Below are positions 18,043-54,559 of a DNA stretch of 64,000 nt, piece by piece. Position numbers and translations under genes: made by a program. The stretch spans positions 1 through 64,000 of IMG/VR virus record IMGVR_UViG_3300030060_004020; one strand, 5' to 3'. Under the pieces are notes generated by a model. The model made no database searches and was not told the DNA's origin. It saw only the letters and a program-made list of their open reading frames with translations. Origin of the DNA: an uncultured virus (IMG/VR IMGVR_UViG_3300030060_004020) (taxonomy: Duplodnaviria; Heunggongvirae; Uroviricota; Caudoviricetes). The stretch's first letter is position 1. Every line of letters starts with the position of its first letter.

Positions 18043-18225
18043 CGCAAATTTTTTTGAAAAATTTTTTTTTTCGATTTTTTCTGCATAAGTGCAAACTTCA
18101 TCTTCCGTTGAATTTAAAATAATAACACCTAATGGTTTATCTTCATCATAAAGTAGCCAAGTAATTGTAAATCCCCATATAATGCCAATGATTGAAATTA
18201 AAACTATGTAAGTTAAAAATGACAT
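18019..18225 (-). CDS. Small membrane protein
   Basis: N-terminal TM helix; C-terminus runs into the terminator. Confidence 0.45.
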   Translation of the reverse strand: MSFLTYIVLISIIGIIWGFTITWLLYDEDKPLGVIILNSTEDEVCTYAEKIEKKNFSKKFAKKKVEGE

Positions 18226-31820: not shown

Positions 31821-33482
31821 TCACCTTACAAATCCACTAGAAGAAGTTCTCCTATTCAATTTGCCTGTTATCATATCGGCTAGTTTTTGCGCTATTCTTC
31901 TAAGTTCAGCATCCGAAGTATCTTTGGCATTTATTGTAACGCTAACATTATTGTTCACTACACCACCGCCCATTTTCTTACTTTCATTATTGTTATGAAC
32001 TCTAGCCCCTTTTGGTAAATTAACTAACTCCGGCCCTCTTTCTCCAACAACTGCCATACCGCCTCCCGAAACTCCTCCGTTAGCAAAAAAGTCTAATTTG
32101 AAAGTGTCTTTTATAATGTCACCTAATTTTTTAACTACTGCAAAAAGCAAAGCAGTAAGACCAAGAATCATTAAAGCGGGAAGAGCATAAATAGCAACTA
32201 CTGTTAGCATTTGAATCATTATTTGTTTCACTACATAGGCTGCTAAAAAGATAAATAAGGCTTTCTTCGCTATTTTAAACACTGTGCTTCTAAATTGTTC
32301 GTCGGTTAAGAATTTATGAATGAGGTCTAATCCCGTATAAAACACCCCTATTGCTAGTGCCAATAGACCTTTTAATACTACTCCAAGCAAATTCAATCCT
32401 ATTAATAATAAATTATCAACAAATTCTAAAGCATAGTCTAAAAATGTATAAATATCTCCCGATAATAAAGCACCTATCATACTAAATATTAACATAACAT
32501 TATCTAATACTAATGACCCTATTCTCATTATATCATCTATTACTCCCAAATCTTGTAGTATTCCTAATGAATCATGGATAAATTTAGCCAATACCAAGAA
32601 TCCCATAATTCCAAGCATTAGCATTATTAACACTTTAAAGGCATAATTAAGAACAGGCTTCATAGTTTTTTGAAGACCAATCATCCCTTTTCTATATTTT
32701 AAAGTTTTTTTAGCCATTTTTTCTTGAAATTTTTGCCGTCTTTCTCCTAGTCTAAGAGTAGCGGAAATCTTATCTTCTATCTCTTTAAATATTTCAAGTT
32801 GAGTAGTTGCTTGTGGTTTCTTTTTAGTTAAAAAGAACTCTTCTTTTAATGCCCTTTCTTGAGAGCGAATACCGGATTTTATTTTACCTCTACCTGCTTT
32901 TGATTCTAAATTTTCATCAAAAATTGCTTGTTTTTGTGCCGCCTCAAACACTTTACTTTGCTGAACCCCTTTATCTAGTAGTTCTTCTATTCCTGCTAAT
33001 ACTTGTTCATCCACACTCTTCATTGTTAGTTTAGCATTGGCATATGCGGCAGTTCCTTTTATTGCTTCTTGCATAGCCTTATTTTCTTTTAGCATATCAA
33101 CTGCGGCTTGCTGACTTCCTTCCTGTATTAGTTTTTTTACTTTATTTACTTCGACTAATTCTTTTGTGAGTTTTCCATGCGAGGAAACTAAATCAATAAG
33201 TTGTTTTTGTTCCTTAGAAGCGGCTAGAGTATTTTTCTTAGATGCTTCTTCTATTTGTGCCAATATATCCACAAATGCTCTTACTTTATTTTGTAGTCTC
33301 CATAACGGACTACCGGAAACAAGCCTAGCAAAAATTGTCCATTTTTTACCAGCGTCACTTGTTGCTTTAGAATATCCAATAATTCTTTTTGTGAAGCCTT
33401 GAAAACCCTTATCCGCTAATTTAGTAACATCGTTAAGACTACCAAGACTATCTGCGAGTTTTTCGACTTCATTCTCGGCCAT
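31821..33482 (-). CDS. Tail tape measure protein
   Basis: Helical with hydrophobic stretches; FANGG...VVGERGPELV; follows chaperones. Confidence 0.85.
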   Translation of the reverse strand: MAENEVEKLADSLGSLNDVTKLADKGFQGFTKRIIGYSKATSDAGKKWTIFARLVSGSPLWRLQNKVRAFVDILAQIEEASKKNTLAASKEQKQLIDLVSSHGKLTKELVEVNKVKKLIQEGSQQAAVDMLKENKAMQEAIKGTAAYANAKLTMKSVDEQVLAGIEELLDKGVQQSKVFEAAQKQAIFDENLESKAGRGKIKSGIRSQERALKEEFFLTKKKPQATTQLEIFKEIEDKISATLRLGERRQKFQEKMAKKTLKYRKGMIGLQKTMKPVLNYAFKVLIMLMLGIMGFLVLAKFIHDSLGILQDLGVIDDIMRIGSLVLDNVMLIFSMIGALLSGDIYTFLDYALEFVDNLLLIGLNLLGVVLKGLLALAIGVFYTGLDLIHKFLTDEQFRSTVFKIAKKALFIFLAAYVVKQIMIQMLTVVAIYALPALMILGLTALLFAVVKKLGDIIKDTFKLDFFANGGVSGGGMAVVGERGPELVNLPKGARVHNNNESKKMGGGVVNNNVSVTINAKDTSDAELRRIAQKLADMITGKLNRRTSSSGFVR

Positions 33483-34225: not shown

Positions 34226-35863
34226 TCACCCCTGTAAAACCCAATGTGTTGTTACTTCACACAAATGTAAGTCTCTCGGCATTACTGTTCCTTCAATAGT
34301 AATTGGCCCTTTGTCGTCGGGAATAGTAACATTAGCCGCACTTAAGAAATAATTTTTCAATTGTATTTTTATCTTCTCTCCATTGTCTTTATCAAATTCT
34401 AAATTTAATAAACCATTCGCTACTGTATCGGTGGCAATTTCTTCTGTTTGTGAATTAACCCCAACTAATTCTTCATAGAGTTTATCATCAGTAATCATAG
34501 CGGTAAAAGAAATTTCATATGTTCTTTGAGCAGGTATAGCGTCTTTTATCTTTTTATTTCCTATTCCTAAAAATCTCTTGTCTTGTAGGTTGTTGTTGAT
34601 TGTCAAAGTAAAATTAGTTATCTTCAAAAATTGTTGTCCAAATATACTAAAAGAACCACTTGAGAAAAAGAATGGCTCTAGCGATTCTGCCCCTGTTGCT
34701 GCTAAAGTATTTGAGCCGCTACCATAATTAAATAGAGTTGTGTTGGTTAAATCTGAATTTCCTCCTCTTGCTTGGTATGCTTCTTGTTGTTTTAGAGTAT
34801 GAACTGTTCTAGTGTTTAAATCCATAGTCATTTTAACTTCTTCATTTTCATTAGCCGTCATAGTTAATGTATTGACTCTATTGCCTCTTGCTATTCTAAC
34901 AAAATTCTTTGACTCGGAAGCCGCCGTCGTTTCTGTATTGTAGGTATTGGAAGATTCTAATTTACTTAGCGTTTGTTCAAGAGCAAAAGAAGGTAAGTCT
35001 TCTCCGTTTGCTTCTGCAAATGTATATTTGATTGGGTCTTGAATAACACCCGAAGCATTGTGACTAGGTAATGTAAGTAATGCAAAATGTGTAGCAGTAT
35101 CTTGGTGCGCTACAGGAGGTATCATAAATGAAGAATCAGTGGCAGTTCTATAAAATATAGGGCCTGTTGAAGTGTGTCCTTCTAAAGTATCGCTAAATGT
35201 TTTAGCGGTAGCGGTTTCTCCAATATCTAAATAATGAACATTATTAGCATGTGCAGTATAAGGTGGAGTTGCAGGGTCTAATGAACTTGAACCTGTAAAT
35301 GTAGCATTAACCTTAGAACATTGTCCTAGCGCATAATATAACCATGCTCCATGATTTGTAATGTATGCTAAATTCCCACCACTAGAAGTTTCGATACCTT
35401 TGTATTGATGAGTAAAATTTCTTTTTCCTCCTAATGAAAGATTGAGTTGTTTCATCTCAACCTCAACACTTGGGAAGGTTGCAGTTTCTAAAATACCTAG
35501 CCAATTGTCAGCACTTAATCTAGCAATCGAGCCTGTTTTAGTAGTAGGGGCGGGTGTTCCATAAGCATGTAATACAATAAAATCTGTTGCATCTTGTATA
35601 GTTAAAGTATGTGCGGGGGTTATAGTAAAAGAAGTTGTGTCATTTGATGAAACAGTATGTGTTGAAACATAAGTTCCATTATCATACAAGTCAACCTTAC
35701 AACCAACATATAAGTCTTCAACCAATCTTACATTGTCACTCCATAAAGCATCAGCAACTAATTGAGTGCTTGAACTTGAACTGTCTAAAATAATCTTTAA
35801 GTCTAACTCCGGTATGAATGTTAAACTTGCTCCACTTCCTAAAAATATATCTGTATTTGTCAT
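34226..35863 (-). CDS. Major tail (tube) protein
   Basis: LPSFALE, RVNTLTMTA, ITNFTLTINNNL, RTYEISFT. Confidence 0.8.
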   Translation of the reverse strand: MTNTDIFLGSGASLTFIPELDLKIILDSSSSSTQLVADALWSDNVRLVEDLYVGCKVDLYDNGTYVSTHTVSSNDTTSFTITPAHTLTIQDATDFIVLHAYGTPAPTTKTGSIARLSADNWLGILETATFPSVEVEMKQLNLSLGGKRNFTHQYKGIETSSGGNLAYITNHGAWLYYALGQCSKVNATFTGSSSLDPATPPYTAHANNVHYLDIGETATAKTFSDTLEGHTSTGPIFYRTATDSSFMIPPVAHQDTATHFALLTLPSHNASGVIQDPIKYTFAEANGEDLPSFALEQTLSKLESSNTYNTETTAASESKNFVRIARGNRVNTLTMTANENEEVKMTMDLNTRTVHTLKQQEAYQARGGNSDLTNTTLFNYGSGSNTLAATGAESLEPFFFSSGSFSIFGQQFLKITNFTLTINNNLQDKRFLGIGNKKIKDAIPAQRTYEISFTAMITDDKLYEELVGVNSQTEEIATDTVANGLLNLEFDKDNGEKIKIQLKNYFLSAANVTIPDDKGPITIEGTVMPRDLHLCEVTTHWVLQG

Positions 35864-37726: not shown

Positions 37727-39382
37727 TTAAATACCTACCTCTAGTGTTTTTACTCTACTTAATATCGAATTTATAAATGTGTTTAAATGAGAAATATCTA
37801 CTCTACTTTCTATAATACGAGTTTTTTTCTTTTTAGGATTGAAACTTCCTCCTTGAAATATTATAGATGTAGGAGTAGCGTATAATCTTTTTATTTTATA
37901 ATTAGTTGATTTTTTTGTTTTTGTTTTTTCCACTTCAAAATCAATTTTATACGCATTTTCCAAATCATTCAAGTATGGTTTTAATCTTTTTTTTAAGAAA
38001 TCTTTTGTTTTTTCAAAAGAATTTTTTCCGTCGTCACTACTAAACTTACTAGGAGCATCTTTATATTTTTTATAAAATTCACTTTCCATTTTTTCTACTT
38101 CTTCTTTTTTAGCATTAATAATTGTTTTTGTTTTAGTTTCTAATGCAGGTGACTTTTCAAAAATATTATCCTTGCCATCAAAAAAATCCTCATAAGTAAA
38201 TTCTTGAAACTTGTCTATCGAGTTTGCTTTTTTGTCGCCAAGTAATTCCGGTGAAGAAGTCCCTCTAAAAATATTAGCCAAAGTAAGCCCTGTTTCTCCT
38301 ATTAGTTTTTCTACTTCTTTTTGAAAATCAAATAATTCTGTTGCTAGTTTATTAGAAATTTCTTGTTTTTTGGCTTCTTTTTCTAAGTCTTTAAGTGTAG
38401 GTCTAACTATATTTACTTCTTTTCCCTTTTTATCTTTTACTTCATCTAATTTTCTATCTATTTCTCTTTCCTTTTCATCTTCAAAATCAAGTAACATTTT
38501 TCGATATTCAGTTTTGAATGTTCTATTTATTTCATTCCTTAATTTTTTTTCAAGATTTTTTATTTGCCTATATTTAGCAACTTCTTCTTTATTATTATCT
38601 TCATATTTTTTACCTAATTGAACAACTATTGGGTCTACTGCGCTTGTTGGGGTAACAGTTCTTCTGCTTCCCATAGTTTCTACAACCAATGGAATAACTT
38701 GGTCTGTTAGTGTAGAAACTAAATCCGAAGGAGTGTCTTTTCCTAACTGTGGGTTTTTTCCTTGTTCCGCCAAATCACCGGAAGTTTTTGTGTAGGGTTC
38801 TGCAAGTTTAATATTAGTAAATCCTAAATTAACTAAGGTTTTGAATTTATCTCCATCTTTGAATTTGTTTAATTCATCTATTTTAACTCGCTTAATATTA
38901 TCAGCATCAGTTGTTATATTATACAAATCATCAAAGTAAGAATCATAATCTTCAACTCCTTTCTTTAATTGGACTTTTGTTTCTTTAGAGTCTAGTGGGA
39001 ACTCATACATTCTTTTCAAAGTGCTAGGAGTAAGTTCATTCAACTTATAATCCATAATTCTATCATCTAACTTGACAGAATTAAATCTTTTTTTAACTTT
39101 TTTATTTCCTAATAGTTCTTTTAAAGTAGTATCTTTGATTTTATCTAGGGCTTGTTTGTATATTTTTTTATATTCTCTCGCTTTGCCTTGATTTACTTTC
39201 TTTAAATTATCCCACTCGTAGTTATCATCGATGTTATTATTAGCCTTTCTTATTCCGACCTTTATATCTAAAATATTATTTAAGATATATTTCAAAAAAA
39301 CATCATTTGCTATGTCACTATTCCATTGTTTAGGCACACCGTTTATAATGACTTTCAAAAAAATCACCTTCACATTAACCAT
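37727..39382 (-). CDS. Hypothetical Lys-rich protein
   Basis: 551 aa ORF. Confidence 0.6.
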   Translation of the reverse strand: MVNVKVIFLKVIINGVPKQWNSDIANDVFLKYILNNILDIKVGIRKANNNIDDNYEWDNLKKVNQGKAREYKKIYKQALDKIKDTTLKELLGNKKVKKRFNSVKLDDRIMDYKLNELTPSTLKRMYEFPLDSKETKVQLKKGVEDYDSYFDDLYNITTDADNIKRVKIDELNKFKDGDKFKTLVNLGFTNIKLAEPYTKTSGDLAEQGKNPQLGKDTPSDLVSTLTDQVIPLVVETMGSRRTVTPTSAVDPIVVQLGKKYEDNNKEEVAKYRQIKNLEKKLRNEINRTFKTEYRKMLLDFEDEKEREIDRKLDEVKDKKGKEVNIVRPTLKDLEKEAKKQEISNKLATELFDFQKEVEKLIGETGLTLANIFRGTSSPELLGDKKANSIDKFQEFTYEDFFDGKDNIFEKSPALETKTKTIINAKKEEVEKMESEFYKKYKDAPSKFSSDDGKNSFEKTKDFLKKRLKPYLNDLENAYKIDFEVEKTKTKKSTNYKIKRLYATPTSIIFQGGSFNPKKKKTRIIESRVDISHLNTFINSILSRVKTLEVGI

Positions 39383-40047
39383 TTAGCCCAAGCCGCACCT
39401 TTCTGTATGGCACTACCTAAACCTAAACCGCTTGAAGGTGGCTCATAACTCATTTGTCCTTGAGCATCTATCCAATATGGCCTACCATAATTGTCAGTTC
39501 CCGATGGTGGAATAGGATAACCACTACCATTATTCATAGCCCCTTGTACTTGTTGATATTGTTGAACATTACCTGTTAGTCCCGCTACTGCCATACCTGC
39601 TGATGCCTGTTGCATAGGCATTTGTCCTGCTCCTCCACTAAATCCTTGTGATTCTAAGTATTGTTGCTTCGCCAATTTTCTTTGATTAACAACTTCTGTA
39701 TTAATCGCAGCGTCTAGTATTCTTTGTATATCTAACTCAATGTTTTCTTGAGTAATCTTTTCAAACTCTCTCATAGCATCATTATGAATCTTTAACATTC
39801 CTGTTGTAGAATCAGTTGTGAATTGTAATTTAGCCAACATCTTACTAACTACTCTTTCTACAACATCTTCCATGAGTTTTTCCATCTGTGTCAAAAACAT
39901 TTGACCGTGATATTGAAAGAACTCTTCAACATGATTATCTTGTAAAGAAAGTAAATTATTTACATTCTTAAATTGTTGGTCGCTTTGTTGTTGAACTGCC
40001 CCTAAAACTGTGCTATTACTTGTTCCTAAAATCCCCATATTACTCAC
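39370..40047 (-). CDS. Gln/Gly-rich protein with amphipathic C-terminus
   Basis: Helical core, Q/G-rich linker, ends LGSAIQKGAAWAKWLM. Confidence 0.65.
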   Translation of the reverse strand: MSNMGILGTSNSTVLGAVQQQSDQQFKNVNNLLSLQDNHVEEFFQYHGQMFLTQMEKLMEDVVERVVSKMLAKLQFTTDSTTGMLKIHNDAMREFEKITQENIELDIQRILDAAINTEVVNQRKLAKQQYLESQGFSGGAGQMPMQQASAGMAVAGLTGNVQQYQQVQGAMNNGSGYPIPPSGTDNYGRPYWIDAQGQMSYEPPSSGLGLGSAIQKGAAWAKWLM

Positions 40048-40672
40048 CCTGCTCTCCTTTAATTAGATAATTAATCCTTTCTGTATTTAATTGTATTTCC
40101 GCCGTCAATCTAACTATTTCTGCCATTTGTGTTTCTGCATCTTTAGCCGGAGTTGGTGGCGTTATAGTCCACCCCATGCTAGTCAGCCTCATAACATCTT
40201 CTTTAGTTAATGTGTTTAATTGTTGTCTTTTTAACATAGAAGGCATTTTCGCTTTAGGAATAAATGCTTTAAAATCTAAGCCGTGTTCATCAGCCAATAT
40301 TTGTTGTTGTAGCATTTCCATTTGTTTATGAATTGCTGCGTGTTTTTGACAATAAGTTCCTCTCAGTGGCCTACCTTTCTCTACTTTGTCTAATGGTATT
40401 GGTGGTCTTAGATAATCACCGGACTCCCAAACATGATGAGTTCCACATACTACGCATCTATCTTTAAAGTTAAACTTATAGCCGTATTTTAAGAAAAGAA
40501 TCTTTTTCTTCTCCGGTAGTAATACTTTTCTTATTTCTTTCATTTGTTTCTTTGGTTTTAGTGCATCATATTTGTAGTCCTCAATTGGCCCAACTGCTCT
40601 ATATTGTTGCAGTTTGGGTAAAAAAGCATTCTTCGCTTGTTGCGTCTGTATTAAATTCGGTTGTTGATACAT
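40040..40672 (-). CDS. Zn-binding protein with C-terminal coiled coil
   Basis: CVVCG...YCQKH. Confidence 0.65.
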   Translation of the reverse strand: MYQQPNLIQTQQAKNAFLPKLQQYRAVGPIEDYKYDALKPKKQMKEIRKVLLPEKKKILFLKYGYKFNFKDRCVVCGTHHVWESGDYLRPPIPLDKVEKGRPLRGTYCQKHAAIHKQMEMLQQQILADEHGLDFKAFIPKAKMPSMLKRQQLNTLTKEDVMRLTSMGWTITPPTPAKDAETQMAEIVRLTAEIQLNTERINYLIKGEQGE

Positions 40673-40674
40673 CT

Positions 40675-41250
40675 TTAATCATCCTCGTAAAGTTCTCTTC
40701 TTTCTCGCTTTATTCTCTCGCTTTCTTTTCGGTGTCTTTCTTCTACTTCTTTAACTTTTTTAACTTTAACATTATTAACATTCCAAATACAACCCGAATC
40801 CATATCCCAACTATCGGGCCAATAAAGTTTATGCCAATTATAATCAACATTTCTAATTTCAATACCATCGTAGTCTTCTGTCACTGCGGGTAATTCGGGT
40901 TTAGTAGGGTTTTTAACCCATCTTATTTCATTTCCAAATGTTTTTGTTTTAACTCCGTATTTATCATCGAAGTCTTGTAGTTGTTTTTCACCATTTATTT
41001 TTAAAATTTTAACATTAGACACATCTAATTCTAAGATATAATTATATTTGTCTATCCAACCATAATCATATAAGGTTCTTGATAGCCAACCCCCTGCACC
41101 TAATGTAAAAGAATACCACAACCCCGTTTGCCCCCCACTAATAGAGCGAGGCTTATTAGAAACAGGTTTTAATTCATATGTTCTTTTTTCTATTTTGTGA
41201 TTCTTAGATAAAGCAAATCTTCTAACAGACTTTAGCAAATTAAACCACAT
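40675..41250 (-). CDS. Hypothetical protein with N-terminal WxxLLK tag
   Basis: MWFNLLKS; GLWYS, YDGIEI, WDMDSGCIWN. Confidence 0.6.
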   Translation of the reverse strand: MWFNLLKSVRRFALSKNHKIEKRTYELKPVSNKPRSISGGQTGLWYSFTLGAGGWLSRTLYDYGWIDKYNYILELDVSNVKILKINGEKQLQDFDDKYGVKTKTFGNEIRWVKNPTKPELPAVTEDYDGIEIRNVDYNWHKLYWPDSWDMDSGCIWNVNNVKVKKVKEVEERHRKESERIKRERRELYEDD

Positions 41251-41254
41251 AATA

Positions 41255-41917
41255 TCAATAATCCTTTATCATAGTAGTTATTCCTTTATACACCATTTCG
41301 GGGTCGGACTTTGCTGATACTATATATTTAAAACAAGGTATTCCCTTGTCATTCAACTGCCTCATCCCATATGTAAACGGTTCAAATATTTCATGTTTGT
41401 CTATGGGTCTTTCGCTTTTATACTTCTCTCCCCACATATCATATTTGTTAGCCCATATACCAACTGCCATAGGATAGTCTACTTCTTTTTTCTTTCTACC
41501 CGAAGGCCACCTTTCTGCTACGATAGTATCTACTAAAAATTTCCATGCTAACTGATGGTCTAAATTAGAAGGAGAATCTAAATGCCTATGGTCTATCATA
41601 AAAATAATATATCTTACTCTACGCTTTTGCATATCTTTAACCCATTCTTTCCAATAAATTGCTTCTCCTCCTAAGTCAGCACTTTTAATTGTATGAGAAT
41701 CTCCATCAATTTTTACATTCTTTCTAGTGGCTCTATGTAAACCAACTGTTCTATCATTTATTGTAGGGACTTCCCCTCTTGTTCTAAGTTGGTGGCTTAA
41801 TGTTGTTTTACCAACCATTGTAGAACCATAGACTCCAAAGTTAATTGCATGGACTCTTTTGTAAAATCCTATAATTGCTTCACCTACTAATATAGCAAAG
41901 CCTGTCATTATGGACAT
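41255..41917 (-). CDS. Ras-superfamily small GTPase (Arf/Sar1-like)
   Basis: G1 GSTMVGKTT, G2 RTVG, G3 DLGG, G4 NKYD, G5 SAK; hydrophobic N-terminal helix. Confidence 0.88.
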   Translation of the reverse strand: MSIMTGFAILVGEAIIGFYKRVHAINFGVYGSTMVGKTTLSHQLRTRGEVPTINDRTVGLHRATRKNVKIDGDSHTIKSADLGGEAIYWKEWVKDMQKRRVRYIIFMIDHRHLDSPSNLDHQLAWKFLVDTIVAERWPSGRKKKEVDYPMAVGIWANKYDMWGEKYKSERPIDKHEIFEPFTYGMRQLNDKGIPCFKYIVSAKSDPEMVYKGITTMIKDY

Positions 41918-42136
41918 TTAATGCCCCCAAATATCTTTAGCCCTCTCTATAATCCAACCCATTATATTAATGTCAAAGACTCCCATTATATTACCAACTA
42001 GAAAAGCGGATAGTGCTAAACAACTTCCCCAAAAATACATTTTCATTTTAATAAAAAACATATCTGCTGAATGCGCCCTACTTTGATTATACACATAGTC
42101 GGACTCACTAAAGCCCATTATGTCTCCAAAGACCAA
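41918..42136 (-). CDS. Small membrane protein
   Basis: YFWGSCLALSAFLVGNIMGVF. Confidence 0.65.
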   Translation of the reverse strand: MVFGDIMGFSESDYVYNQSRAHSADMFFIKMKMYFWGSCLALSAFLVGNIMGVFDINIMGWIIERAKDIWGH

Positions 42137-42147
42137 TTAATCACAAC

Positions 42148-42564
42148 CTATTGTTGTATAGTTGCTAGGAACTCATTACTGATAGTGTTGTCTTCAAAGG
42201 TAGCGGTAGGTTCTTCCGCTACTACATTGTTTCTCCAACTATCTCTTCTAGCCGTTCCAAATTGCCTCATGCTTTCTTGAAGTTTAGCCTTGATTTGTTC
42301 TTCTCTTTGTAGTCTTTGGAAGTGGTTTTCTATCTGTCTATCCAACAATCTAATTTCTATCTTGTCATTGAGTGACAAGTCGAATAGTGCTTTCATAACC
42401 ATTATTCCCCCTACTGTAATAAGACCAAATAAAACAGAATGTGCTAATGCTCCATATGGGAAGTTTAATCCATATGCGGAGTAGAAATATACATTTGCTC
42501 CGCTAACTGTTCCGACAAATAAAATTGTCATAATCAATCTTGTATCTTGACTTAGTGCCGCCAT
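42148..42564 (-). CDS. Two-TM membrane protein with coiled-coil tail (holin-like topology)
   Basis: Two hydrophobic helices, then charged helical tail. Confidence 0.65.
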   Translation of the reverse strand: MAALSQDTRLIMTILFVGTVSGANVYFYSAYGLNFPYGALAHSVLFGLITVGGIMVMKALFDLSLNDKIEIRLLDRQIENHFQRLQREEQIKAKLQESMRQFGTARRDSWRNNVVAEEPTATFEDNTISNEFLATIQQ

Positions 42565-43280: not shown

Positions 43281-43634
43281 TCAAAGGTTGCCCCAAACTC
43301 TCAATCTAACAGAGCCACCGTTGCCATCATCGGAAACAGTAGCGTTTGTTCCATCGAGTGAAGTAAACATAAGAGCAAGTGAAGTGCTTGACTCATAAGC
43401 CCCTGTTGCTGAACACTCAATTTGTGGTTGTATTCCGTTAGCGTTATCAAAACCTGTAATTGTTGCACAATGTATTGTAGATAATCCAAAGTCAGCCGCA
43501 GGTATAACTGAACCTGCCGCAACAATAGATGTTACATCAACTAGTGCATCAACAACATATTCATCACCGCATACTTTAGGTCTAGTTACCCCCTTGTGGT
43601 CTGCTAGTAACTTTACTGTAAATGCCAATGCCAT
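43281..43634 (-). CDS. Putative capsid decoration/minor head protein
   Basis: Beta-rich, downstream of MCP. Confidence 0.5.
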   Translation of the reverse strand: MALAFTVKLLADHKGVTRPKVCGDEYVVDALVDVTSIVAAGSVIPAADFGLSTIHCATITGFDNANGIQPQIECSATGAYESSTSLALMFTSLDGTNATVSDDGNGGSVRLRVWGNL

Positions 43635-43930: not shown

Positions 43931-45268
43931 TCATTGTATGTTTGTTATCTTTCCTTGACCTTTGAAGAAGGAACATCCGACTTCACCAATTGTTCGATAC
44001 AAAGCCCTGTTACCTAGAGTTCCGACACCGAATGGATTTCCATTAGCGATACCATCTTCAAAGTATTGTGTTGGCTTCATAACCGATAGCCACAAATGGT
44101 CTGTATCAAGGAATAGTAAATCACTTAGTTTTGTTGAAGCACTACCTGTTTGGCACATATCCTTAACAGGGATTAGTGGAATATCGTAGTATGTTGCTAC
44201 TCTAAATCCAACTTCTTGTCCTTTAACTCCTCTAACACCGTTTACAGTTGGCACAACTTCTTTTCTGTCCATGAATCTTTCTTGGCTTTGTAACAAGTCA
44301 GCAATTGCTTGAATTGTATCATATCCAGTTAGAATAACCTTTGGAGAACCACCGGCTAGTCTTAGGTTTCTAATCATATCATTAAGTCTAGTTAGAGTTA
44401 GTGAACGAACATCGCCGGAAGTGTAGCCAGTTCCACAATCTACTTCTGCATCAAGGAAAGATGCCGCAGTAAATCTCTCACTACCGTAAATCTTTCCTAG
44501 AGCGTTAGAAGCGGAAGTTGTATCAGTAGCGATAACTCCCTCGTCAATTTTTAGCAATTCATCTCTTGAAGTAATAACCTTGTTTAGAGAAGTATAGTTG
44601 TTTCCGATATTTGGCATAGCGGATGATTCACCATAATGCTCTAGTGGCATAACCAACATTTTGTTTTGTACTTCAGCATGGTGCTTACCCATATCTTCAC
44701 GCATTTGCGCTCTAATATCGCCAATACCATCATCAATTTGTGCCATTTCCATAGCAAGTTCGCTGAAATCAAATTGGTGTGCAACTACTTTAGGACTCAT
44801 GTTTAGTTGAGCGTAAGTTGGTGCAATTGGGCCAAGTCCATCTTGTGCTGTTGATAGTCCCGCATTCTCCGGTACACCACCAATCATATCTGCTCTTGGA
44901 CTATCGGAACCTAGTTCTGCTAAGTTTTCTGTTCCAGTTGCGTCAACAGTAAACAAGTTACCGCTTCCACCGGCAGGTCGTGACTTTAGAACTCTCCATC
45001 CACTAGATGAATAAGGTCTTTTTGAAATCATTGAAAGAGCGTTAACTTCTCTATTCAACATTGACCATACTTTTTGTCCATAAACAATATTGTATAATGC
45101 AGATACATCACTAACAGCACTACCGGAGAATGCCGGAGAACCATCATGTCCTGTGTGTATTCCACCAATAGCACCTGCTTGCTTCAAAAGAGCGTTACCG
45201 GCAGGTAGATTGTTTATTCCATATGTGCTTGCTTCTAAATCTGCGATTGTGTTAATATAACCTGTCAT
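43931..45268 (-). CDS. Major capsid protein (HK97 fold)
   Basis: After protease; PTYAQLNMSPKVVAH, YYDIPLIP, LLFLDTDHL. Confidence 0.9.
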   Translation of the reverse strand: MTGYINTIADLEASTYGINNLPAGNALLKQAGAIGGIHTGHDGSPAFSGSAVSDVSALYNIVYGQKVWSMLNREVNALSMISKRPYSSSGWRVLKSRPAGGSGNLFTVDATGTENLAELGSDSPRADMIGGVPENAGLSTAQDGLGPIAPTYAQLNMSPKVVAHQFDFSELAMEMAQIDDGIGDIRAQMREDMGKHHAEVQNKMLVMPLEHYGESSAMPNIGNNYTSLNKVITSRDELLKIDEGVIATDTTSASNALGKIYGSERFTAASFLDAEVDCGTGYTSGDVRSLTLTRLNDMIRNLRLAGGSPKVILTGYDTIQAIADLLQSQERFMDRKEVVPTVNGVRGVKGQEVGFRVATYYDIPLIPVKDMCQTGSASTKLSDLLFLDTDHLWLSVMKPTQYFEDGIANGNPFGVGTLGNRALYRTIGEVGCSFFKGQGKITNIQ

Positions 45269-45269
45269 C

Positions 45270-46502
45270 TTAAATTCCTCCTACCATTTTGTGAATGTCC
45301 GACCAATCCATGTTAGCCATTTCATCCATACTTGGGAGTTGTACTGCGGATTCTTCTTGAGCCTTTAGAATAGTTTCCTTTTCTGCTGTCAAAGATTTCC
45401 TTAGTTGTGTAAATTCATCTTTAAGAGAAGCAATTTCGCTTTGTGCATCATAGTTTTGCTTTGCGATTGTGTTTTCCCTTGATGTAATTTCAGTAGCGAA
45501 TCTTGCTTCAAATGATTTCTTTAGGTTATCATAAGCAAGAGTTTCTAACTGCTCTTGTCGGAAAGCCTCATAAGCCTTCTCGATGTTTCCAACTGACAAA
45601 TCAAGAGTATCGAACTCTCCATTGTTAAATGCCTTTACAACAGGCATGTCGGAAGCAGTTGGCTTACCGTTGTTAATAACAATACGGTCAGCAGGTTCTC
45701 CAATTTGGTTTCCTGCACCATCAAGGGTTCTTAGATATGCTTTGTTTGAATCGTCTTGGTATTCGCCCATGTTTTCATCTTCTACATCAGCATGTTCCAT
45801 GTCTTCTTCATCAGTCATTTCGGAGTCTCCTCTTTCCATGTAATCTGCCATTTCTTCATCTTTGTGCATGCCCTTTTCATCGAGCAACTCTTCTTCTTTA
45901 CGAAGCGTATTTACTTCTTCTAGCAAAGTATCTAACTCCGCTAATGCTTTTTCTAGTTTTTCACTCATATCATTGTCTCCTTTATCTTGTTTCAAAATAT
46001 CGAATCTCGCTTCGGGGTTAATTCCTTTTTCGCATATAGTAATTTCATGCAACTCTAACTTGCTGATTTCATTATACTCACCTAAGTTTTCATTACTTTT
46101 CTTTACTTTTTGGAGGGCTTGACCTCCTATGCTAAAAGACCTCAATGACCCTTTGCGAATGTTTCTGCCAACTTCTTTGGCTTTCTCTATATCATCTCGT
46201 AGTTTAATTACTACAAAGAAACCAACATCATCTACTTCGGATTTCCAAAGCCTACCTGTGCTGTCTCTATAAGAATCTACAACTTCTCCAACTTGAACAT
46301 TGGAATGGTTTGTCATGACATTTCTAAATTTAGAATCTTTCATGAACTTAATAACTGCTTCTTCCAATGCAGGTAAAGTAATTAAATCATTTTGTTTATC
46401 TACAATTTCAATACTAGCGTAGCCACCAATCATTAATTCATCACTTCTAGCCTTGAGGATGGAAAACCCATCATTTCTCGTTGCTAAAACTGCCGATGTC
46501 AT
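45270..46502 (-). CDS. Prohead protease with C-terminal scaffold domain
   Basis: IGGYAS..VDKQND, MTNH, FSIGG, LHEITIC..GINPEA; acidic coiled-coil C-half; start moved to ATG 46502. Confidence 0.92.
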   Translation of the reverse strand: MTSAVLATRNDGFSILKARSDELMIGGYASIEIVDKQNDLITLPALEEAVIKFMKDSKFRNVMTNHSNVQVGEVVDSYRDSTGRLWKSEVDDVGFFVVIKLRDDIEKAKEVGRNIRKGSLRSFSIGGQALQKVKKSNENLGEYNEISKLELHEITICEKGINPEARFDILKQDKGDNDMSEKLEKALAELDTLLEEVNTLRKEEELLDEKGMHKDEEMADYMERGDSEMTDEEDMEHADVEDENMGEYQDDSNKAYLRTLDGAGNQIGEPADRIVINNGKPTASDMPVVKAFNNGEFDTLDLSVGNIEKAYEAFRQEQLETLAYDNLKKSFEARFATEITSRENTIAKQNYDAQSEIASLKDEFTQLRKSLTAEKETILKAQEESAVQLPSMDEMANMDWSDIHKMVGGI

Positions 46503-46524
46503 TTCGCTCAAAGGGAAAAAATTT

Positions 46525-46545
46525 CCTTTTAATATATAATACACA
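46525..46545 (-). promoter_or_regulatory. Putative TATA-box promoter of protease-MCP unit
   Basis: TTATATATTAAAA about 30 nt upstream of the ATG. Confidence 0.4.
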
Positions 46546-46561
46546 CGGTTATTTTAAACTA

Positions 46562-49120
46562 TTAATCCTCTTTTGGAGGTAATTTAAGACTACTATACTT
46601 ATCTTCGTAAATATTCCACAATCCTTTATCTGCGTCAGTATCAGCAGGTTTCTGTTCATAGCCTGTCCATGCTAACCACATTCTTTTTCCTTTAACTTCA
46701 AGCATTCTAACATGAAGTTTAGTTTCAAACTTATTACCATCTAGGAAATATTCGTGATAGCCTTCCTTTTGAACGCCCAACTTAACATCACCACTATCAA
46801 TTAGTTTCCGCTTAGATATATTCTTAGCAACAATAGCAGGGAATTTGCCCGCCTTTCCAAATAATTCAAACACATCATCTTGTGAATCTAATCTAACCAT
46901 CCAATTGATACTTTCATCACCTAACTTCATTACTATGTTTAGATTATCGTCATCTCTAAGGTATATCTTAAACTCACCACTTCTATATTTTTCAGGAGTT
47001 TCGTATTCTTTCTTAATGGTGTCCATCAATATTTTATCATTTTCAGCAAACAACTTTTTTGTTTTAGCATCAAATGATATGCCGTCTCTATTTTCAAACC
47101 AATCCTTAACTCGGCTTTCTTTACTTTCTAGTATGTCTTGATATTCTTTTTTGTGATTTTTAACTAAGAAATTGTGAACAACTTTTGGTACTTGTGCGCC
47201 CTTCTCCTTTAAGAAATTAAATACAGCAACAGTAAGTTTAGATTGTTTTGTTTTCATTATCTCTTCTGCTTGTTCTTTCCACAAGTCTAAATCCATTAGT
47301 GCATTCTTAGCCATTAGATTGTTTTCTTCAAATCCATAGATAGTAAAACCATCCATGTCTCCTTTGATTATAATATTGGCTTCACCGTGAATATGGTCAG
47401 AAACTACAATACCTTTCTCTACTTCTTCTACATTATATTTCAAAGATTTATCCGTATCATTAATTAGCATTTGTAGAGTAACTAACTTATCCGGTGTCTT
47501 ACTTTCAGCGATTTCATTTATCTTTGCTGAATAAACAACCGGCTTACCCTTAACTTCTTTTACCTTATCAATAGAAACTCTAACCACTTCTCCGACATCT
47601 GCTGAAACTTTAGTATTAGTGGCACTACCAACATTAAGATAATTTACTCCTTCTATCTTTTCACCTTCCTCTTCAACCGGCCCTGCTCCTAATTTGTAAG
47701 AAAAGTTAGAACCACTTTTCTTTTTATCAAGAACAATTAAATCTAATTCTACAAATGGTTTCCAACGAATCCACTTAGGATTCTTTTTTGTTCCTAAGAA
47801 ATATGTAGATGTAGAATCTTTAATCATAGCCCCTTCTGCTGTCGGCATTTCCATAATTTTCTTAGCGTATTCTTCTACATCTTTTAGATTATCTGCAACT
47901 CTAGTATCTTTTTTAGATGGGAATGTCAAGTCTTCACTAGAATGTATAGAATAGTTGTTAAACATTATCTGCATTCTGTTTTGTAGTGTATCTTCCATGA
48001 GGTTTTCTTCATTGTGTCTCATGATGTCAAACACATGAATTCTAACCTTGCCCTCTCTTTTTCCCTCTAAGTATTCTACTGCATCTTTTCTTTTAAGAGA
48101 GTCATCTCCATCAAATAAAACTAAAGAAGCATCCAAGATACAATCACCAAAATGTTTTTTCTTTAGTTCCTCAACGGCTTCTTTACACTTTGATGTAATA
48201 TCTTTTCCTGTATAATCATAAACTTTTATATTCTTATCTATTTTATGTAATTGAATTCTAAAACCATCGTATTTTTCTTGAACATAAAACTCACCACTGA
48301 ATCCCTTTAATTCGTTCATATCTTCTATTGTAAATATTCTATACATTGGTTTGTTAGGGATTATGAAATCACTTTGGGCTTTTTCTTCATCGGACTTCTT
48401 TTCTTTTAAAATAATTTTATCATTTTCTTTTTTATTACCCTTTTCGTCTTTAGCCTTAGCCTCATCTAAATCTGTATCTATATCTTCTAGTTCAGCCCAT
48501 TCTTCTTTAGTATTCTTAGATAAGAATATTAATTCTAACATATTCATAGCGGCCTTTACCTTAGACTCCACTTTCTTAGAATCTTTATCGTCACCATAAT
48601 GCTCTATGATATAAAGTGCAACATCATCTACTTCTAAATCTAATCCCATAAGTCCTTCTGTAATGTCATCGGGCTTCATGTCTTTAATTGAATATGCTTC
48701 TTTTGGTAGTGCCTTATCATCTTCTCTAATAGCATAGTGAACAAACTTAATCATAAGTTCGGGTGATTCTAATAATGCCTCTAATACATTACCTTTAAAT
48801 TTTTTAGCGAAGGGGTCACTAACTTCTTCCGAAGAATACCTAAGTGCCTTTATTGCTTCATACAATTTTTCAGCATTATTTGTTGTTGAGTCGGAAACAT
48901 CATTTGATTCTAATAAATCTTCATCAATATAATCCTTAAGTTCATTTGAAAGAGCATCCGTCATTTCATATGCGTCTTTAATTTTATTTACTGCGTTTCT
49001 CCACTTAGAACCGTATTCCTTTGGGTCGGTTCTTGCTGAAAGATAAGCGACTCTTGTTCTTTCAAAGAGTCTTAGAATATCTGTGGATATTGACTTATCC
49101 TTCTCAATAAGAAGCGGCAT
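46562..49120 (-). CDS. ATP-dependent ligase-like multidomain protein in head module
   Basis: QEKYDGFR, VFDIM, EGAMIK, KWIRWKP; helical N-domain; possible LigD-phosphoesterase-like C-domain. Confidence 0.8.
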   Translation of the reverse strand: MPLLIEKDKSISTDILRLFERTRVAYLSARTDPKEYGSKWRNAVNKIKDAYEMTDALSNELKDYIDEDLLESNDVSDSTTNNAEKLYEAIKALRYSSEEVSDPFAKKFKGNVLEALLESPELMIKFVHYAIREDDKALPKEAYSIKDMKPDDITEGLMGLDLEVDDVALYIIEHYGDDKDSKKVESKVKAAMNMLELIFLSKNTKEEWAELEDIDTDLDEAKAKDEKGNKKENDKIILKEKKSDEEKAQSDFIIPNKPMYRIFTIEDMNELKGFSGEFYVQEKYDGFRIQLHKIDKNIKVYDYTGKDITSKCKEAVEELKKKHFGDCILDASLVLFDGDDSLKRKDAVEYLEGKREGKVRIHVFDIMRHNEENLMEDTLQNRMQIMFNNYSIHSSEDLTFPSKKDTRVADNLKDVEEYAKKIMEMPTAEGAMIKDSTSTYFLGTKKNPKWIRWKPFVELDLIVLDKKKSGSNFSYKLGAGPVEEEGEKIEGVNYLNVGSATNTKVSADVGEVVRVSIDKVKEVKGKPVVYSAKINEIAESKTPDKLVTLQMLINDTDKSLKYNVEEVEKGIVVSDHIHGEANIIIKGDMDGFTIYGFEENNLMAKNALMDLDLWKEQAEEIMKTKQSKLTVAVFNFLKEKGAQVPKVVHNFLVKNHKKEYQDILESKESRVKDWFENRDGISFDAKTKKLFAENDKILMDTIKKEYETPEKYRSGEFKIYLRDDDNLNIVMKLGDESINWMVRLDSQDDVFELFGKAGKFPAIVAKNISKRKLIDSGDVKLGVQKEGYHEYFLDGNKFETKLHVRMLEVKGKRMWLAWTGYEQKPADTDADKGLWNIYEDKYSSLKLPPKED

Positions 49121-49130
49121 GTAAAATACC

Positions 49131-54331: not shown

Positions 54332-54559
54332 TCAAAACGGAATATTCTCTTTCTTACCTCTCCTTTTTTGTGGGGGTAAGATAACATCGGGAACATCATT
54401 AGATGCTCTTGTTGCTTTATGAGTTGTGTCCGGTGGTAATCCACCAACAGAAAAATCACGATTCTTCGTAGTCTTTCTAGTTTCATTTGCATTCTGTGTT
54501 CTAACTCTCGCTAATTCTTTCTTTAGTCTAATCTCTTTCTGTCTATTATCTTCTGTCAT
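54332..54559 (-). CDS. Small basic protein
   Basis: 75 aa, coupled to portal. Confidence 0.55.
   Translation of the reverse strand: MTEDNRQKEIRLKKELARVRTQNANETRKTTKNRDFSVGGLPPDTTHKATRASNDVPDVILPPQKRRGKKENIPF

What the first reader, a model, noticed from the sequence alone, without database searches (positions are those of the whole stretch)
39370..42564. Arf/Sar1-like small GTPase in a membrane-protein cluster between head and neck genes
Seen: 220-aa protein with all five G motifs (GSTMVGKTT, RTVG, DLGGE, NKYD, SAK) and an N-terminal hydrophobic helix. It is tightly linked to a 2-TM coiled-coil protein, a small TM protein, a Zn/coiled-coil protein and a Q/G-rich protein with an amphipathic C-terminus. 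Established: DLGG plus an N-terminal membrane helix is Sar1/Arf-like, and those proteins bend membranes; Glu replaces the catalytic Gln/His. I recognised no other lysis module in the window. Inference: a GTP-switched membrane remodelling, egress or lysis-timing system, also relevant to the origin of eukaryote-like GTPases.
Basis: partly seen in the sequence, partly recalled or inferred. Interest (0 to 1): 0.85.

Follow-up and report, generated by a model that had tools for sequence, protein, structure and literature searches.

The report
Magrovirus Arf-like GTPase membrane cassette
A tailed virus of the abundant ocean archaea Marine Group II carries its own very divergent Arf-type GTP switch with a membrane anchor, fixed in a gene block with two small membrane proteins and two orphan proteins; the block is an untested candidate for how such viruses act on, or leave through, the host membrane.

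Summary
Window 41255-41917 (minus strand) encodes a 220-aa small GTPase with intact G1-G5 motifs and a hydrophobic N-terminal helix. It lies in a tightly packed minus-strand block with a 138-aa two-segment membrane protein, a 72-aa membrane protein, a Cys/His protein (p210) and a Gln/Gly-rich protein (p225).

Profile, fold and language-model comparisons all place the GTPase nearest the Arf/Sar1/SRbeta branch. The Pfam Arf model itself does not detect it.

The family is virus-only. Only 2 of its loci lie in 185,579 species' genomes, both in one probably mis-binned MAG, so it is not a recent host capture.

The five-gene block is kept in two magrovirus lineages whose GTPases are only about 35% identical. 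In the second lineage it sits upstream of the terminase gene, not between head and neck genes, so it moves as a unit. All its genes are under purifying selection.

Function is untested. Membrane remodelling or egress is the best guess (about 0.4).

A new point: swappable genes on both sides of the GTPase gene, including the window's p191, share an N-terminal MW(K/F)(D/N)(I/L)LK tag.

This scan has already reported the same cassette on other DNA, in at least 32 genomes. No searchable paper describes it.

The parts
42148..42564 (-). TM138: 138-aa membrane protein with two hydrophobic segments (residues 10-28 weak, 38-65 strong) and a charged, Gln-rich helical tail
   Evidence: ORF. Hydropathy. 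No Pfam, PHROG or PADLOC family above noise. A homologous or analogous 178-218-aa (mostly 185-201) protein lies upstream of the GTPase in 73/73 close and 72/72 distant testable loci. dN/dS is 0.035-0.095 in close pairs.
41918..42136 (-). TM72: 72-aa single-pass membrane protein whose stop codon abuts the GTPase start
   Evidence: ORF. Hydrophobic segment at residues 35-63. A small hydrophobic ORF lies between the TM138-like gene and the GTPase in 76/76 close and 71/78 distant loci. dN/dS is 0.024-0.107 in close pairs.
41255..41917 (-). Divergent Arf/Sar/SRbeta-type small GTPase, 220 aa. Residues 1-19 form a hydrophobic N-terminal helix. G1 31-38, G2 T57, G3 DLGGE 81-85, G4 NKYD 157-160, G5 SAK 201-203.
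   Evidence: The AF2 model has pLDDT 86.8. Top fold matches are Arf6 (Z 18.0), SRbeta (17.4) and Sar1 (17.1). dN/dS is 0.025-0.092 in 14 of 14 pairs.
40675..41250 (-). p191: variable insert in the slot between the GTPase and p210. It starts with MWFNLLK, the tag shared by unrelated slot inserts. Not part of the conserved core.
   Evidence: Found by tblastn in only 5 of 80 close loci (L002, L004, L005, L026, L065). Tag analysis. No family found.
40040..40672 (-). p210: 210-aa orphan with a Gln-rich N-terminus, a conserved core holding invariant C73, C108 and H111, and a C-terminal helix. It is the constant downstream partner of the GTPase.
   Evidence: Alignment A4 with the 294-339-aa proteins of the distant lineage. 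Present in 53/53 close and 80/80 distant testable loci. No Pfam, PHROG, PADLOC, PDB or Atlas relative. The AF2 model is unusable, pLDDT 51.
39370..40047 (-). p225: 225-aa protein rich in Gln, Gly, Asn and Met (27 Q, 22 G), with a helical middle and a small hydrophobic C-terminal tail (GLGLGSAIQKGAAWAKWLM)
   Evidence: Alignment A5 with the 193-217-aa proteins of the distant lineage shows the same layout, with Q128, Q134 and G211 invariant. Present in 53/53 and 80/80 testable loci. It is 74-84% identical where the MCP is 64-68%.

Best explanation
This is a virus-specific, vertically kept five-gene membrane cassette of magroviruses (tailed viruses linked to Poseidoniales). It is built around a very divergent small GTPase of the Arf/Sar1/SRbeta type.

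Shown by sequence:
- The GTPase has an intact nucleotide-binding site.
- Its N-terminal helix is hydrophobic enough to be a membrane anchor.
- It always sits behind two small membrane-protein genes and in front of two orphan soluble-protein genes.
- The block lies in the same direction as the late (virion) genes, with no or tiny gaps.

Inferred mechanism:
1. Late in infection, TM138 and TM72 insert into the host cytoplasmic membrane.
2. The GTPase is tethered beside them with its G domain in the cytoplasm.
3. In the GTP form it gathers p210 and p225.
4. The assembly remodels or breaches the membrane so that virions get out.
5. The nucleotide state acts as the timer or licence.

The residue after DxGG drifts among E, Q, D, H and A. 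Hydrolysis is therefore probably slow or partner-dependent.
For: GTPase identity:
- AF2 model pLDDT 86.8.
- A family profile against PDB sequences ranks an Asgard GTP-binding protein (8oun, 1.6e-7) and Arl3, Arl8 and Arl5 above Rab33 (5.8e-6) and Ras (8.8e-6).
- An all-against-48,161-chain fold search ranks Arf6 (Z 18.0, 17.9), SRbeta (17.4) and Sar1 (17.1) first.
- 9 of 17 family members match Pfam Arf. Arf is the best family for P0174 (57.2 bits), P0182 (36.5) and P0169 (27.2).
- The nearest named Atlas clusters carry PF00025.

Virus-only:
- 65 clusters among 1.84 billion representatives.
- 2 loci in 185,579 species' genomes, both in one MAG. One equals an IMG/VR viral contig in contig length and range.

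Linkage:
- Close lineage: TM138-like 73/73, small TM 76/76, p210 53/53, p225 53/53.
- Distant lineage (GTPase about 35% identical): 72/72, 71/78, 80/80, 80/80.
- In the complete 118-kb record G002 the block lies at about 15-18.4 kb, upstream of TerL (24.2 kb). MCP (39.1-40.3 kb) and the p372 homologue (42.5 kb) are neighbours there.

Selection:
- dN/dS is under 0.11 for all five genes in close pairs.
- GTPase dN is 0.067-0.088 where MCP dN is 0.25-0.28.

By elimination:
- In the 78-kb record, the only other ORFs with hydrophobic segments and a plausible reading are the tape measure protein and two tiny ORFs. The 68-aa one has only 3 relatives in IMG/VR; the 51-aa one was not searched.

Context from papers:
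- The egress machinery of archaeal tailed viruses is unknown (PMC10791045, passages).
- A small GTPase with an N-terminal helix drives vesicle formation in Haloferax (PMC10927574, passages and section 12).
Against: - No experiment or structure shows GTP binding, membrane binding or any partner contact.
- No lytic enzyme or known holin family is present.
- No known lysis system uses a GTPase, and holins need none.
- Lysis proteins usually evolve fast. This GTPase is more conserved than the capsid protein (83-89% against 64-68%), which fits an interaction with a conserved host factor at least as well.
- The Pfam Arf model does not detect the window's protein.
- DxGG is not universal in the family: 4 loci have DIAGE and 2 sequences have DxPG.
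- Late expression is inferred from gene order only. One metatranscriptome library holds two short contigs on p225 and p210, and DNA carry-over cannot be excluded.
- G000 is about 84% complete, so an unseen lysis gene is possible.
Confidence: 0.4

Rival explanations
1. The cassette acts on the membrane for something other than release. Possibilities are superinfection exclusion, takeover of a host membrane process (division, secretion, SRP-type targeting), or anchoring of assembly sites. The highly conserved GTPase would mimic or bind a conserved host factor.
For: - The GTPase is far more conserved than the capsid protein and has dN/dS of 0.025-0.092, as expected for an interface with a slowly evolving host partner.
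- The N-terminal helix is anchor-like, as in SRbeta.
- SRbeta is among the top fold matches (Z 17.4, 15.9, 15.0).
- The window's own protein gives a weak Pfam SRPRB hit (E 0.026).
Against: - Exclusion systems are usually one or two non-core, fast-changing genes. This is a five-gene core block co-oriented with virion genes in both lineages.
- No host partner was identified.
- No SRalpha-like, longin or roadblock partner was detected.
Confidence: 0.2
2. The cassette is a viral counterpart of the archaeal ArvA-ArvB-ArvC vesiculation system. The GTPase buds host membrane into vesicles, for non-lytic spread, decoys or membrane supply, rather than rupturing it.
For: - ArvA is a small GTPase with an N-terminal helix. 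It is annotated as MMR_HSR1 but is closest to Arf by profile search, and it is encoded with a Zn-ribbon protein (PMC10927574).
- The window's GTPase shows the same pattern. Its best direct Pfam hit is MMR_HSR1 (E 0.0034), its relatives hit Arf, and a Cys/His protein gene (p210) lies just downstream.
Against: - The Pfam OapC (PF09845) and OapB (PF09846) models find nothing in G000 even at E <= 1.
- A head-tailed virion has no envelope.
- ArvA has no membrane-protein partners like TM138 and TM72.
- Homology to ArvA itself could not be tested, because no ArvA sequence was obtainable with these tools.
Confidence: 0.12
3. The cassette encodes virion-internal or ejection proteins. They would be packed in the head and released at entry to build a path through the host membrane. 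The MW-tagged swappable genes beside the GTPase would be packaged cargo. T-even phage internal proteins with a shared capsid-targeting leader would be a parallel (recalled, not from a call).
For: - In this lineage the block lies between capsid and neck genes.
- At least 8 unrelated insert families flanking the GTPase gene share an N-terminal heptapeptide found nowhere else in 1.82 Mb.
- A prohead protease gene is nearby.
Against: - In the distant lineage the block lies about 21-24 kb from the capsid gene.
- The virus has a tape measure protein with hydrophobic segments, which would usually serve entry.
- I recall no phage ejection system that contains a GTPase, and GTP would not be available inside a capsid.
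Confidence: 0.12
4. The GTPase is a recently captured host gene, and its neighbours are unrelated hitch-hikers.
For: Five of the 120 listed database rows carry the automatic name 'GTPase SAR1 family protein'.
Against: - No cellular relatives: 65 clusters in 1.84 billion, with the longest contigs of listed members about 60-118 kb and virus-like.
- Only one MAG among 185,579 species holds it, on contigs that look viral.
- The neighbours co-vary with it over deep divergence.
Confidence: 0.02

Closest known systems
Arf family small GTPases (Arf1/Arf6, Arl3, Arl5, Arl8, Sar1; Asgard ArfR, PDB 8OUN/8OUM, bioRxiv 10.1101/2024.02.28.582541)
   Same: - Small-GTPase fold with G1-G5.
- D-x-G-G in G3, a Trp in switch II (W92), and an Asp closing strand 4 (D109).
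- An N-terminal helix ahead of the G domain.
- Best profile, fold and language-model neighbours.
   Different: - The Pfam Arf model does not detect it.
- Glu stands in place of the catalytic Gln. Relatives have Q, D, H or A.
- The N-terminal helix is transmembrane-like (mean hydrophobicity 0.70, moment 0.19), not amphipathic.
- It has extra basic loops and inserts (residues 133-150 and 161-190).
- It is virus-encoded, with membrane-protein partners that no Arf has.
- The interswitch toggle was not tested.
SRbeta, the signal-recognition-particle receptor beta subunit
   Same: - An Arf-like GTPase held in the membrane by an N-terminal hydrophobic anchor.
- High fold similarity (Z 17.4, rmsd 2.3 over 162 residues).
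- A weak Pfam SRPRB hit.
   Different: - The SRPRB score of 14.4 bits is below the 25-bit cut-off.
- No SRalpha/SRX-like partner is present.
- G3 is DLGGE. I recall SRbeta's G3 as D-x-P-G-H; this comes from no call.
ArvA-ArvB-ArvC (OapABC), the archaeal vesiculating GTPase operon (PMC10927574)
   Same: - A small GTPase with an N-terminal hydrophobic helix that acts on the archaeal membrane.
- Encoded in an operon with a Cys-rich small protein.
- The same odd Pfam behaviour: MMR_HSR1 directly, Arf by remote search.
   Different: - No OapB or OapC match in the genome.
- There are two membrane proteins and a Gln/Gly-rich protein in their place.
- It is viral, not cellular.
- Homology to ArvA was not testable here.
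Holins of tailed phages and the pyramid protein PVAP of Sulfolobus viruses (compared by how they work only; features recalled or from PMC10791045)
   Same: TM138 and TM72 are small late-operon proteins with one or two hydrophobic segments and a charged tail. That is the general build of proteins that open the host membrane.
   Different: - No sequence family match.
- TM138 is longer than usual holins.
- No endolysin is present.
- No known holin or PVAP works with a GTPase.
Virus-encoded small GTPases of giant viruses (mimivirus Rab, PDB 5XC5)
   Same: A virus carrying its own Ras-superfamily switch. Fold match Z 16.7.
   Different: - That one is a recognisable Rab in a virus of eukaryotes.
- This one is an orphan branch in a tailed archaeal virus, with its own membrane partners.

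Membership tests
Ras-superfamily small GTPase (P-loop, TRAFAC class) | G1 GxxxxGK[ST], G2 Thr, G3 DxxG, G4 NKxD, G5 SAK-like, and a Rossmann-like G-domain fold | tested here: met
   All five motifs are present. They are invariant or nearly so in 136 unique relatives. The AF2 model has pLDDT 86.8. Foldseek gave at least 500 small-GTPase matches at E <= 0.001. NCBIfam small_GTP matched 11 of 17 members.
Arf family | Detected by the family's curated sequence model (Pfam PF00025, cut-off 22.3 bits) | tested here: not met
   There is no Arf hit for the window's protein at E <= 1 or in a six-frame search of G000. Three distant relatives pass: P0174 at 57.2 bits, P0182 at 36.5 and P0169 at 27.2. The model also rings over its cut-off in 13 of 14 control genomes, so passing it is not very specific.
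Arf family | G3 written (W)DxGGQ, with a catalytic Gln and a conserved Trp in switch II | tested here: inconclusive
   The window has DLGGE plus W92. Among 136 relatives the residue after GG is E 75, Q 50, D 7, H 3, A 1. Four further loci have DIAGE.
Arf family | N-terminal amphipathic helix that is released onto membranes on GTP binding (interswitch toggle). Stated as the defining feature in bioRxiv 10.1101/2024.02.28.582541. | tested here: inconclusive
   A helix at residues 2-22 is predicted. Residues 2-19 are transmembrane-like (mean hydrophobicity 0.70, moment 0.19). Distant relatives are less hydrophobic (Kyte-Doolittle 1.0-1.5). The toggle itself cannot be tested with these tools.
Arf family | Closest fold among solved GTPases | tested here: met
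   Arf6 has Z 18.0 (rmsd 2.5, 163 aligned) and 17.9. Sar1 has 17.1 and Arl13B 16.1. SRbeta (17.4), a Rag-like protein (16.8) and Galpha (16.6) are within 1-2 Z units, so the ranking is soft.
SRbeta | Pfam SRPRB above cut-off, and an SRalpha SRX-domain partner | tested here: not met
   SRPRB scores 14.4 bits against a cut-off of 25. No neighbour matches any known family.
ArvABC (OapABC) vesiculation operon | OapB (PF09846) and OapC (PF09845) genes next to the GTPase | tested here: not met
   No match in G000 at E <= 1 for either model. Both ring in the Haloferax volcanii control.
ArvABC (OapABC) vesiculation operon | GTPase homologous to ArvA (HVO_3014 family) | not testable with these tools
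   No ArvA sequence could be fetched.
Holin | Membership of a described holin family; an adjacent lytic enzyme | tested here: not met
   No Pfam or PHROG lysis family matches TM138 or TM72. No lytic enzyme was found in the ORFs scanned.

The most novel reading that the evidence does not exclude
The cassette is a virus-encoded, GTP-switched sorting device, and the heptapeptide MW(K/F)(D/N)(I/L)LK is its address label. Swappable small enzymes encoded on either side of the GTPase gene would be clients. These include weak GNAT-like, metalloprotease-like and nucleotidyltransferase-like ORFs, and the window's p191. The membrane-anchored Arf-like GTPase and its partners would deliver these clients to or through the host membrane, or into the particle. 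That would be a cargo-tag system of the kind known from eukaryotic Arf/Sar1 trafficking, but in a tailed archaeal virus.
Probability: 0.1. Interest if true: 0.85.

Novelty: new variant of a known kind. Interest (0 to 1): 0.7.

Why it matters
- How any archaeal tailed virus leaves its host is unknown (PMC10791045).
- The cassette is conserved, virus-only and under strong selection. Its three hydrophobic proteins are, besides the tape measure protein, the only conserved membrane-protein candidates seen in this genome. That gives a concrete set of genes to express and test.
- It extends Arf-type membrane GTPases to a virus of non-Asgard archaea.
- The shared tag on swappable neighbour genes, if it is a targeting signal, would be a handle for finding what the device acts on.

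Tried and rejected
**Structure and co-folding**
- AF2 of p210 with alignment A4 gave pLDDT 51 and pTM 0.29. It is unusable, so no fold search was run on it.
- Co-fold of the GTPase (A2) with p210 (A4), GTP and Mg gave no verdict: score 0.00 against a mark of 0.32. I do not count this either way.

**Partner searches with nothing significant**
- PDB profile searches: for p210 the best hit was AP-1 sigma at E 0.45; for p225 the FAK FAT domain at E 0.036; for p191 troponin C at E 0.2.
- Atlas search for p210: best score 0.82, unnamed clusters.
- PADLOC gave only TM138 against PDC-M01B at E 0.0062, 14 bits. I treat this as noise.
- The Pfam SKI hit for TM138 (E 0.015) and the L13 hit for p225 (E 0.026) are also treated as noise.

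**GTPase searches that led nowhere**
- phmmer of the GTPase against PDB: no hit.
- tblastn against 50,697 phage records: no match.
- Homologue search with P0174 returned only itself.
- Homologue search with profile A2 was filled by family members, so no cellular relatives were seen.

**Tool errors**
- The search for related loci with A3 and with A2 failed because the alignments had no conserved stretch.

**RNA runs**
- X2-X4 cover only diverged relatives of the capsid and protease genes.
- Nothing was laid on TM138, TM72, the GTPase or p191. Contigs cannot show absence.

**Insert ORFs**
- Pfam on insert ORFs gave only borderline hits: GNAT at 20.7 bits (equal to the cut-off), WLM at E 0.03, DUF6932 at E 0.02.

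**Papers**
- No mention of a GTPase in the main text of PMC5434244, PMC11706807, PMC10160649 or PMC8651126.
- None in the two held supplement files each of PMC5434244 and PMC11706807. Other supplements, such as the annotation tables S13 and S14 of PMC11706807, were not held and could name it.
- Library searches: 'magrovirus' (22 papers), 'magrovirus'+'GTP' (2 papers, which the listing treated as copies of one work; it concerns GTP cyclohydrolase), 'Poseidoniales'+'virus'+'GTPase' (3, none by title or abstract start on Poseidoniales viruses; texts not opened), 'archaeal virus'+'small GTPase' (16 papers, 15 listed, none by title or abstract start on magroviruses).

Full report
**What is there.** From about 18 kb onward the window's genes run on the minus strand as one long virion-gene operon:
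- large terminase, 60859-62289
- portal, 54559-56205
- an 861-aa protein with a DNA ligase domain, 46562-49147
- prohead protease, 45270-46544
- major capsid protein, 43931-45268
- four small ORFs
- the block in question
- a Lys/Glu-rich 551-aa ORF, then a 372-aa (phrog_17057), a 68-aa and a 169-aa ORF
- tail tube, 34226-35863
- a chaperone-like ORF, and a tape-measure-like protein at 31821-33482

The window is the first 64 kb of a 78,324-base virus record, about 84% complete. Its GTPase is 76% identical to gp088 of Poseidoniales virus YSH_150918, so this is a magrovirus.

They are packed with 0-11 nt gaps or overlaps of 8 and 13 nt. A sixth ORF, p191 at 40675-41250, lies between the GTPase and p210 and was not described.

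**The GTPase.** The 220-aa protein has GSTMVGKTT, RTVG, DLGGE, NKYD and SAK.

Direct searches are weak:
- Pfam gives only sub-threshold MMR_HSR1 (E 0.0034), SRPRB (0.026) and Roc (0.044).
- phmmer against PDB finds nothing.
- The Pfam Arf model finds nothing in the genome even at E <= 1.

Four indirect lines agree on the Arf/Sar/SRbeta branch:
1. A profile of 17 family members (A2) ranks 8oun (labelled 'GTP-binding protein' in the PDB copy; by recall and by earlier scan notes the Asgard ArfR GerdArfR1; E 1.6e-7) and then Arl3, Arl8 and Arl5 ahead of Rab33 (5.8e-6) and Ras (8.8e-6).
2. The AF2 model (pLDDT 86.8) was aligned to 48,161 representative chains. Arf6 came first (Z 18.0 and 17.9), then SRbeta (17.4), Sar1 (17.1), a Lokiarchaeal Rag-like protein (16.8), mimivirus Rab (16.7), a chain of the tubulin-cofactor complex 9edr (16.7; Arl2 by recall) and Galpha (16.6). 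The spread is small, so this ranking is soft. Foldseek alone did not discriminate.
3. 9 of 17 family members match Pfam Arf. For three distant members it is the best family and above the cut-off.
4. The nearest named clusters in the ESM Atlas carry PF00025 on 17-100% of their members.

At motif level, D81-x-G-G, W92 and D109 line up with the Arf/Arl sequences in the profile alignments.

The N-terminal helix (residues 2-19) has mean hydrophobicity 0.70 and moment 0.19. That is the signature of a membrane-spanning anchor rather than a surface-seeking amphipathic helix. It is followed by Tyr-Lys-Arg. Distant relatives have milder N-termini (Kyte-Doolittle 1.0-1.5).

**The catalytic position.** Among 136 unique family sequences the residue after DxGG is E 75, Q 50, D 7, H 3 and A 1. 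It changes between near neighbours on the tree; for example, L141 has H and L146 has D with identical N-termini. Four loci dropped by my motif filter carry DIAGE. The nucleotide-binding residues themselves do not vary. I read this as a real GTP-binding switch whose hydrolysis is slow or supplied by a partner. That is inference.

**Who has it.**
- The close search found 362 proteins.
- An exhaustive search of 1.84 billion cluster representatives found only 65 clusters at E <= 0.001. None was a canonical cellular Arf, Ras or Rab.
- Members lie on contigs of up to about 118 kb in IMG/VR.
- In one genome per 185,579 prokaryote species, only two loci turned up.
- The three Arf-positive intermediates are singletons on 1.5-2.4 kb contigs, so their origin is unknown.

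This is not a recent host capture.

**The cassette.** In 80 close loci the order is: protease, MCP, small ORFs, TM138, TM72, GTPase, p210, p225, variable ORF, p372, p68, p169.

A second lineage was found with P0134, whose GTPase is about 35% identical to the window's. Its MCP is 43-47% identical. It has the layout below:
- a 178-218-aa (mostly 185-201) membrane protein
- a roughly 80-aa membrane protein
- the GTPase (about 240 aa)
- a 294-339-aa protein
- a 193-217-aa protein
- an 80-89-aa two-segment membrane protein

Alignments show that:
- the 294-339-aa protein is homologous to p210 (Y33, C73, G77, W82, G100, R101, T106, Y107, C108 and H111 invariant);
- the 193-217-aa protein has the layout of p225;
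- the first membrane protein has the layout of TM138.

Counts with HMMs built from these alignments:

| Gene | Close lineage | Distant lineage |
|---|---|---|
| TM138-like | 73/73 | 72/72 |
| small hydrophobic ORF | 76/76 | 71/78 |
| p210-like | 53/53 | 80/80 |
| p225-like | 53/53 | 80/80 |

The 7 misses for the small ORF leave a gap of about 250 nt. The profiles were built from members of both lineages, so these counts measure presence, not independent discovery.

In the complete 118-kb record G002 the block lies at about 15-18.4 kb on the same strand as, and upstream of, TerL (24.2 kb). MCP (39.1-40.3 kb) and the p372 homologue (42.5 kb) are only 2.2 kb apart there. The block has therefore moved as a unit between two places in the late region. 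This argues for a self-contained module and against a fixed role in head-neck structure.

**Selection and expression.**
- In 9 close pairs (dS 0.2-2.0), dN/dS is 0.02-0.11 for all five genes. The exception in coverage is p225, which had 8 such pairs because L027 is cut.
- For the GTPase, dN/dS is 0.025-0.092 in all 14 pairs computed. Its dN is 0.067-0.088 where the capsid protein's is 0.25-0.28.
- One marine metatranscriptome library holds two short contigs. One covers 39470-39632 in p225 with no differences. The other covers 40090-40267 in p210 with 4 differences. This is weak, because DNA can sit in RNA libraries.

**What it does.** Nothing here shows function. The case for egress rests on five points:
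- position and direction with the late genes in both lineages;
- three or four hydrophobic proteins per block;
- the general build of TM138 and TM72;
- the lack of other conserved membrane proteins in the 78-kb record. Outside the cassette, one search flagged the tape measure protein, two tiny ORFs at 17703-17858 and 18019-18225, five single-segment hits in larger ORFs (893-1330, 15323-15661, 18232-18789, 43281-43634 and a 57-aa ORF at 13259-13432) that I take to be buried strands or chance ORFs, and one likely antisense ORF. The 68-aa ORF has 3 relatives in IMG/VR;
- the fact that the egress machinery of archaeal tailed viruses is unknown (PMC10791045). Predicted holins in Poseidoniales viruses have been reported only for Adrikavirales, outside the magroviruses (PMC11706807, passages).

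Against it:
- Lysis genes normally evolve fast and need no GTPase.
- Conservation of the GTPase above that of the capsid protein suggests contact with a conserved host factor.

The rivals (another membrane function, ArvA-like vesiculation, virion-internal proteins) are not excluded. I put egress or membrane breaching at about 0.4.

**Known systems.** The closest working parallel is ArvA-ArvB-ArvC of Haloferax. ArvA is a small GTPase with an N-terminal helix, filed as MMR_HSR1 but nearest Arf by profile search. It is needed for vesicle formation and is encoded with a Zn-ribbon protein (PMC10927574). The Pfam models for OapB and OapC find nothing in this genome. ArvA itself could not be compared.

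By family, the GTPase is an outlying branch of the Arf/Sar/SRbeta group that fails the Arf sequence model. I file it as Arf-like, not as an Arf.

**Novelty.** No paper in the searchable library mentions a GTPase in magroviruses. Unheld supplementary annotation tables could.

This scan has reported the same cassette on other DNA many times: 34 findings in at least 32 genomes. One of those reports was later marked 'part of it fell', without saying which part. For that reason I avoid calling p210 a zinc protein and avoid 'always'.

The two junctions flanking the GTPase gene are insertion slots.
- 11 of 76 close loci have an extra ORF between TM72 and the GTPase.
- 15 of 70 have one between the GTPase and p210. 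The window's p191 is one of these.

The inserts fall into at least 8 families unrelated by BLASTP at 1e-5. Yet 28 of them begin with MW(K/F)(D/N)(I/V/L)(L/I)K. A six-frame scan of 1.82 Mb (160 loci) finds the motif 27 times. All are at ORF starts in these slots, with none elsewhere. There are none in the distant lineage or in G002, and only p191 in G000. The codons differ synonymously, which points to selection on the peptide. One 173-aa insert family (L001, L003, L018) lacks the tag.

What the tag is for is open. It could be a targeting signal, a protease or packaging leader, or a by-product of recombination at conserved junctions. L017 carries a duplicated 22-nt copy of the TM72 3' end between two inserts.

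Noticed in passing
window 40675-41250 (p191); L008:5711-6001, L009:5474-5995, L012:6660-7073, L014:6660-7229, L017:5157-5995, L040:5007-5465, L056:6666-7235, L065:6669-7519: Two insertion slots flank the GTPase gene. At least 8 unrelated insert families share the N-terminal heptapeptide MW(K/F)(D/N)(I/V/L)(L/I)K. It occurs 27-28 times, only at these ORF starts, in 1.82 Mb scanned. The codons vary synonymously.
   Followed up: partly
L017:5450-5474: Between two tandem slot inserts lies a roughly 22-nt copy of the 3' end of the TM72 gene (GATATTTGGGGGCATTAAT). This suggests cassette shuffling by recombination at the conserved gene junction.
   Followed up: partly
L128:7727-7906 and 19 further distant-lineage loci: A 59-aa ORF family sits between the GTPase and the p210-like gene in 20 of 80 distant loci. 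By eye it resembles a small AbrB/SpoVT-type DNA-binding protein, but Pfam does not support this.
   Followed up: partly
window 17703-17858 (+) and 18019-18225 (-): Two tiny ORFs (51 and 68 aa) with strong N-terminal hydrophobic segments lie where the plus-strand and minus-strand gene blocks meet. The 68-aa one has a charged tail, which is holin-like in build. It has only 3 relatives in IMG/VR.
   Followed up: partly
window 46562-49147 (-): An 861-aa protein with an ATP-dependent DNA ligase domain (Pfam E 6e-23) sits inside the virion-gene operon, between the portal region and the prohead protease. Its homologue in G002 is a 2,395-aa ORF.
   Followed up: no
window 21478-30075 (-): A 2,865-aa ORF downstream of the tail genes has no Pfam or PHROG match. 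It is presumably a giant tail fibre or adhesin.
   Followed up: no
window 37727-39382 (-): A 551-aa Lys/Glu-rich ORF (111 K+R, 92 D+E) lies just downstream of the cassette. It is highly variable: 27-42% identity, or no detectable match, in loci where the flanking genes are about 90% identical.
   Followed up: no
window 58605-60848 (-): A 747-aa protein combines an HNH-endonuclease-like region (PHROG) with a C-terminal NUDIX domain, next to the large terminase gene.
   Followed up: no
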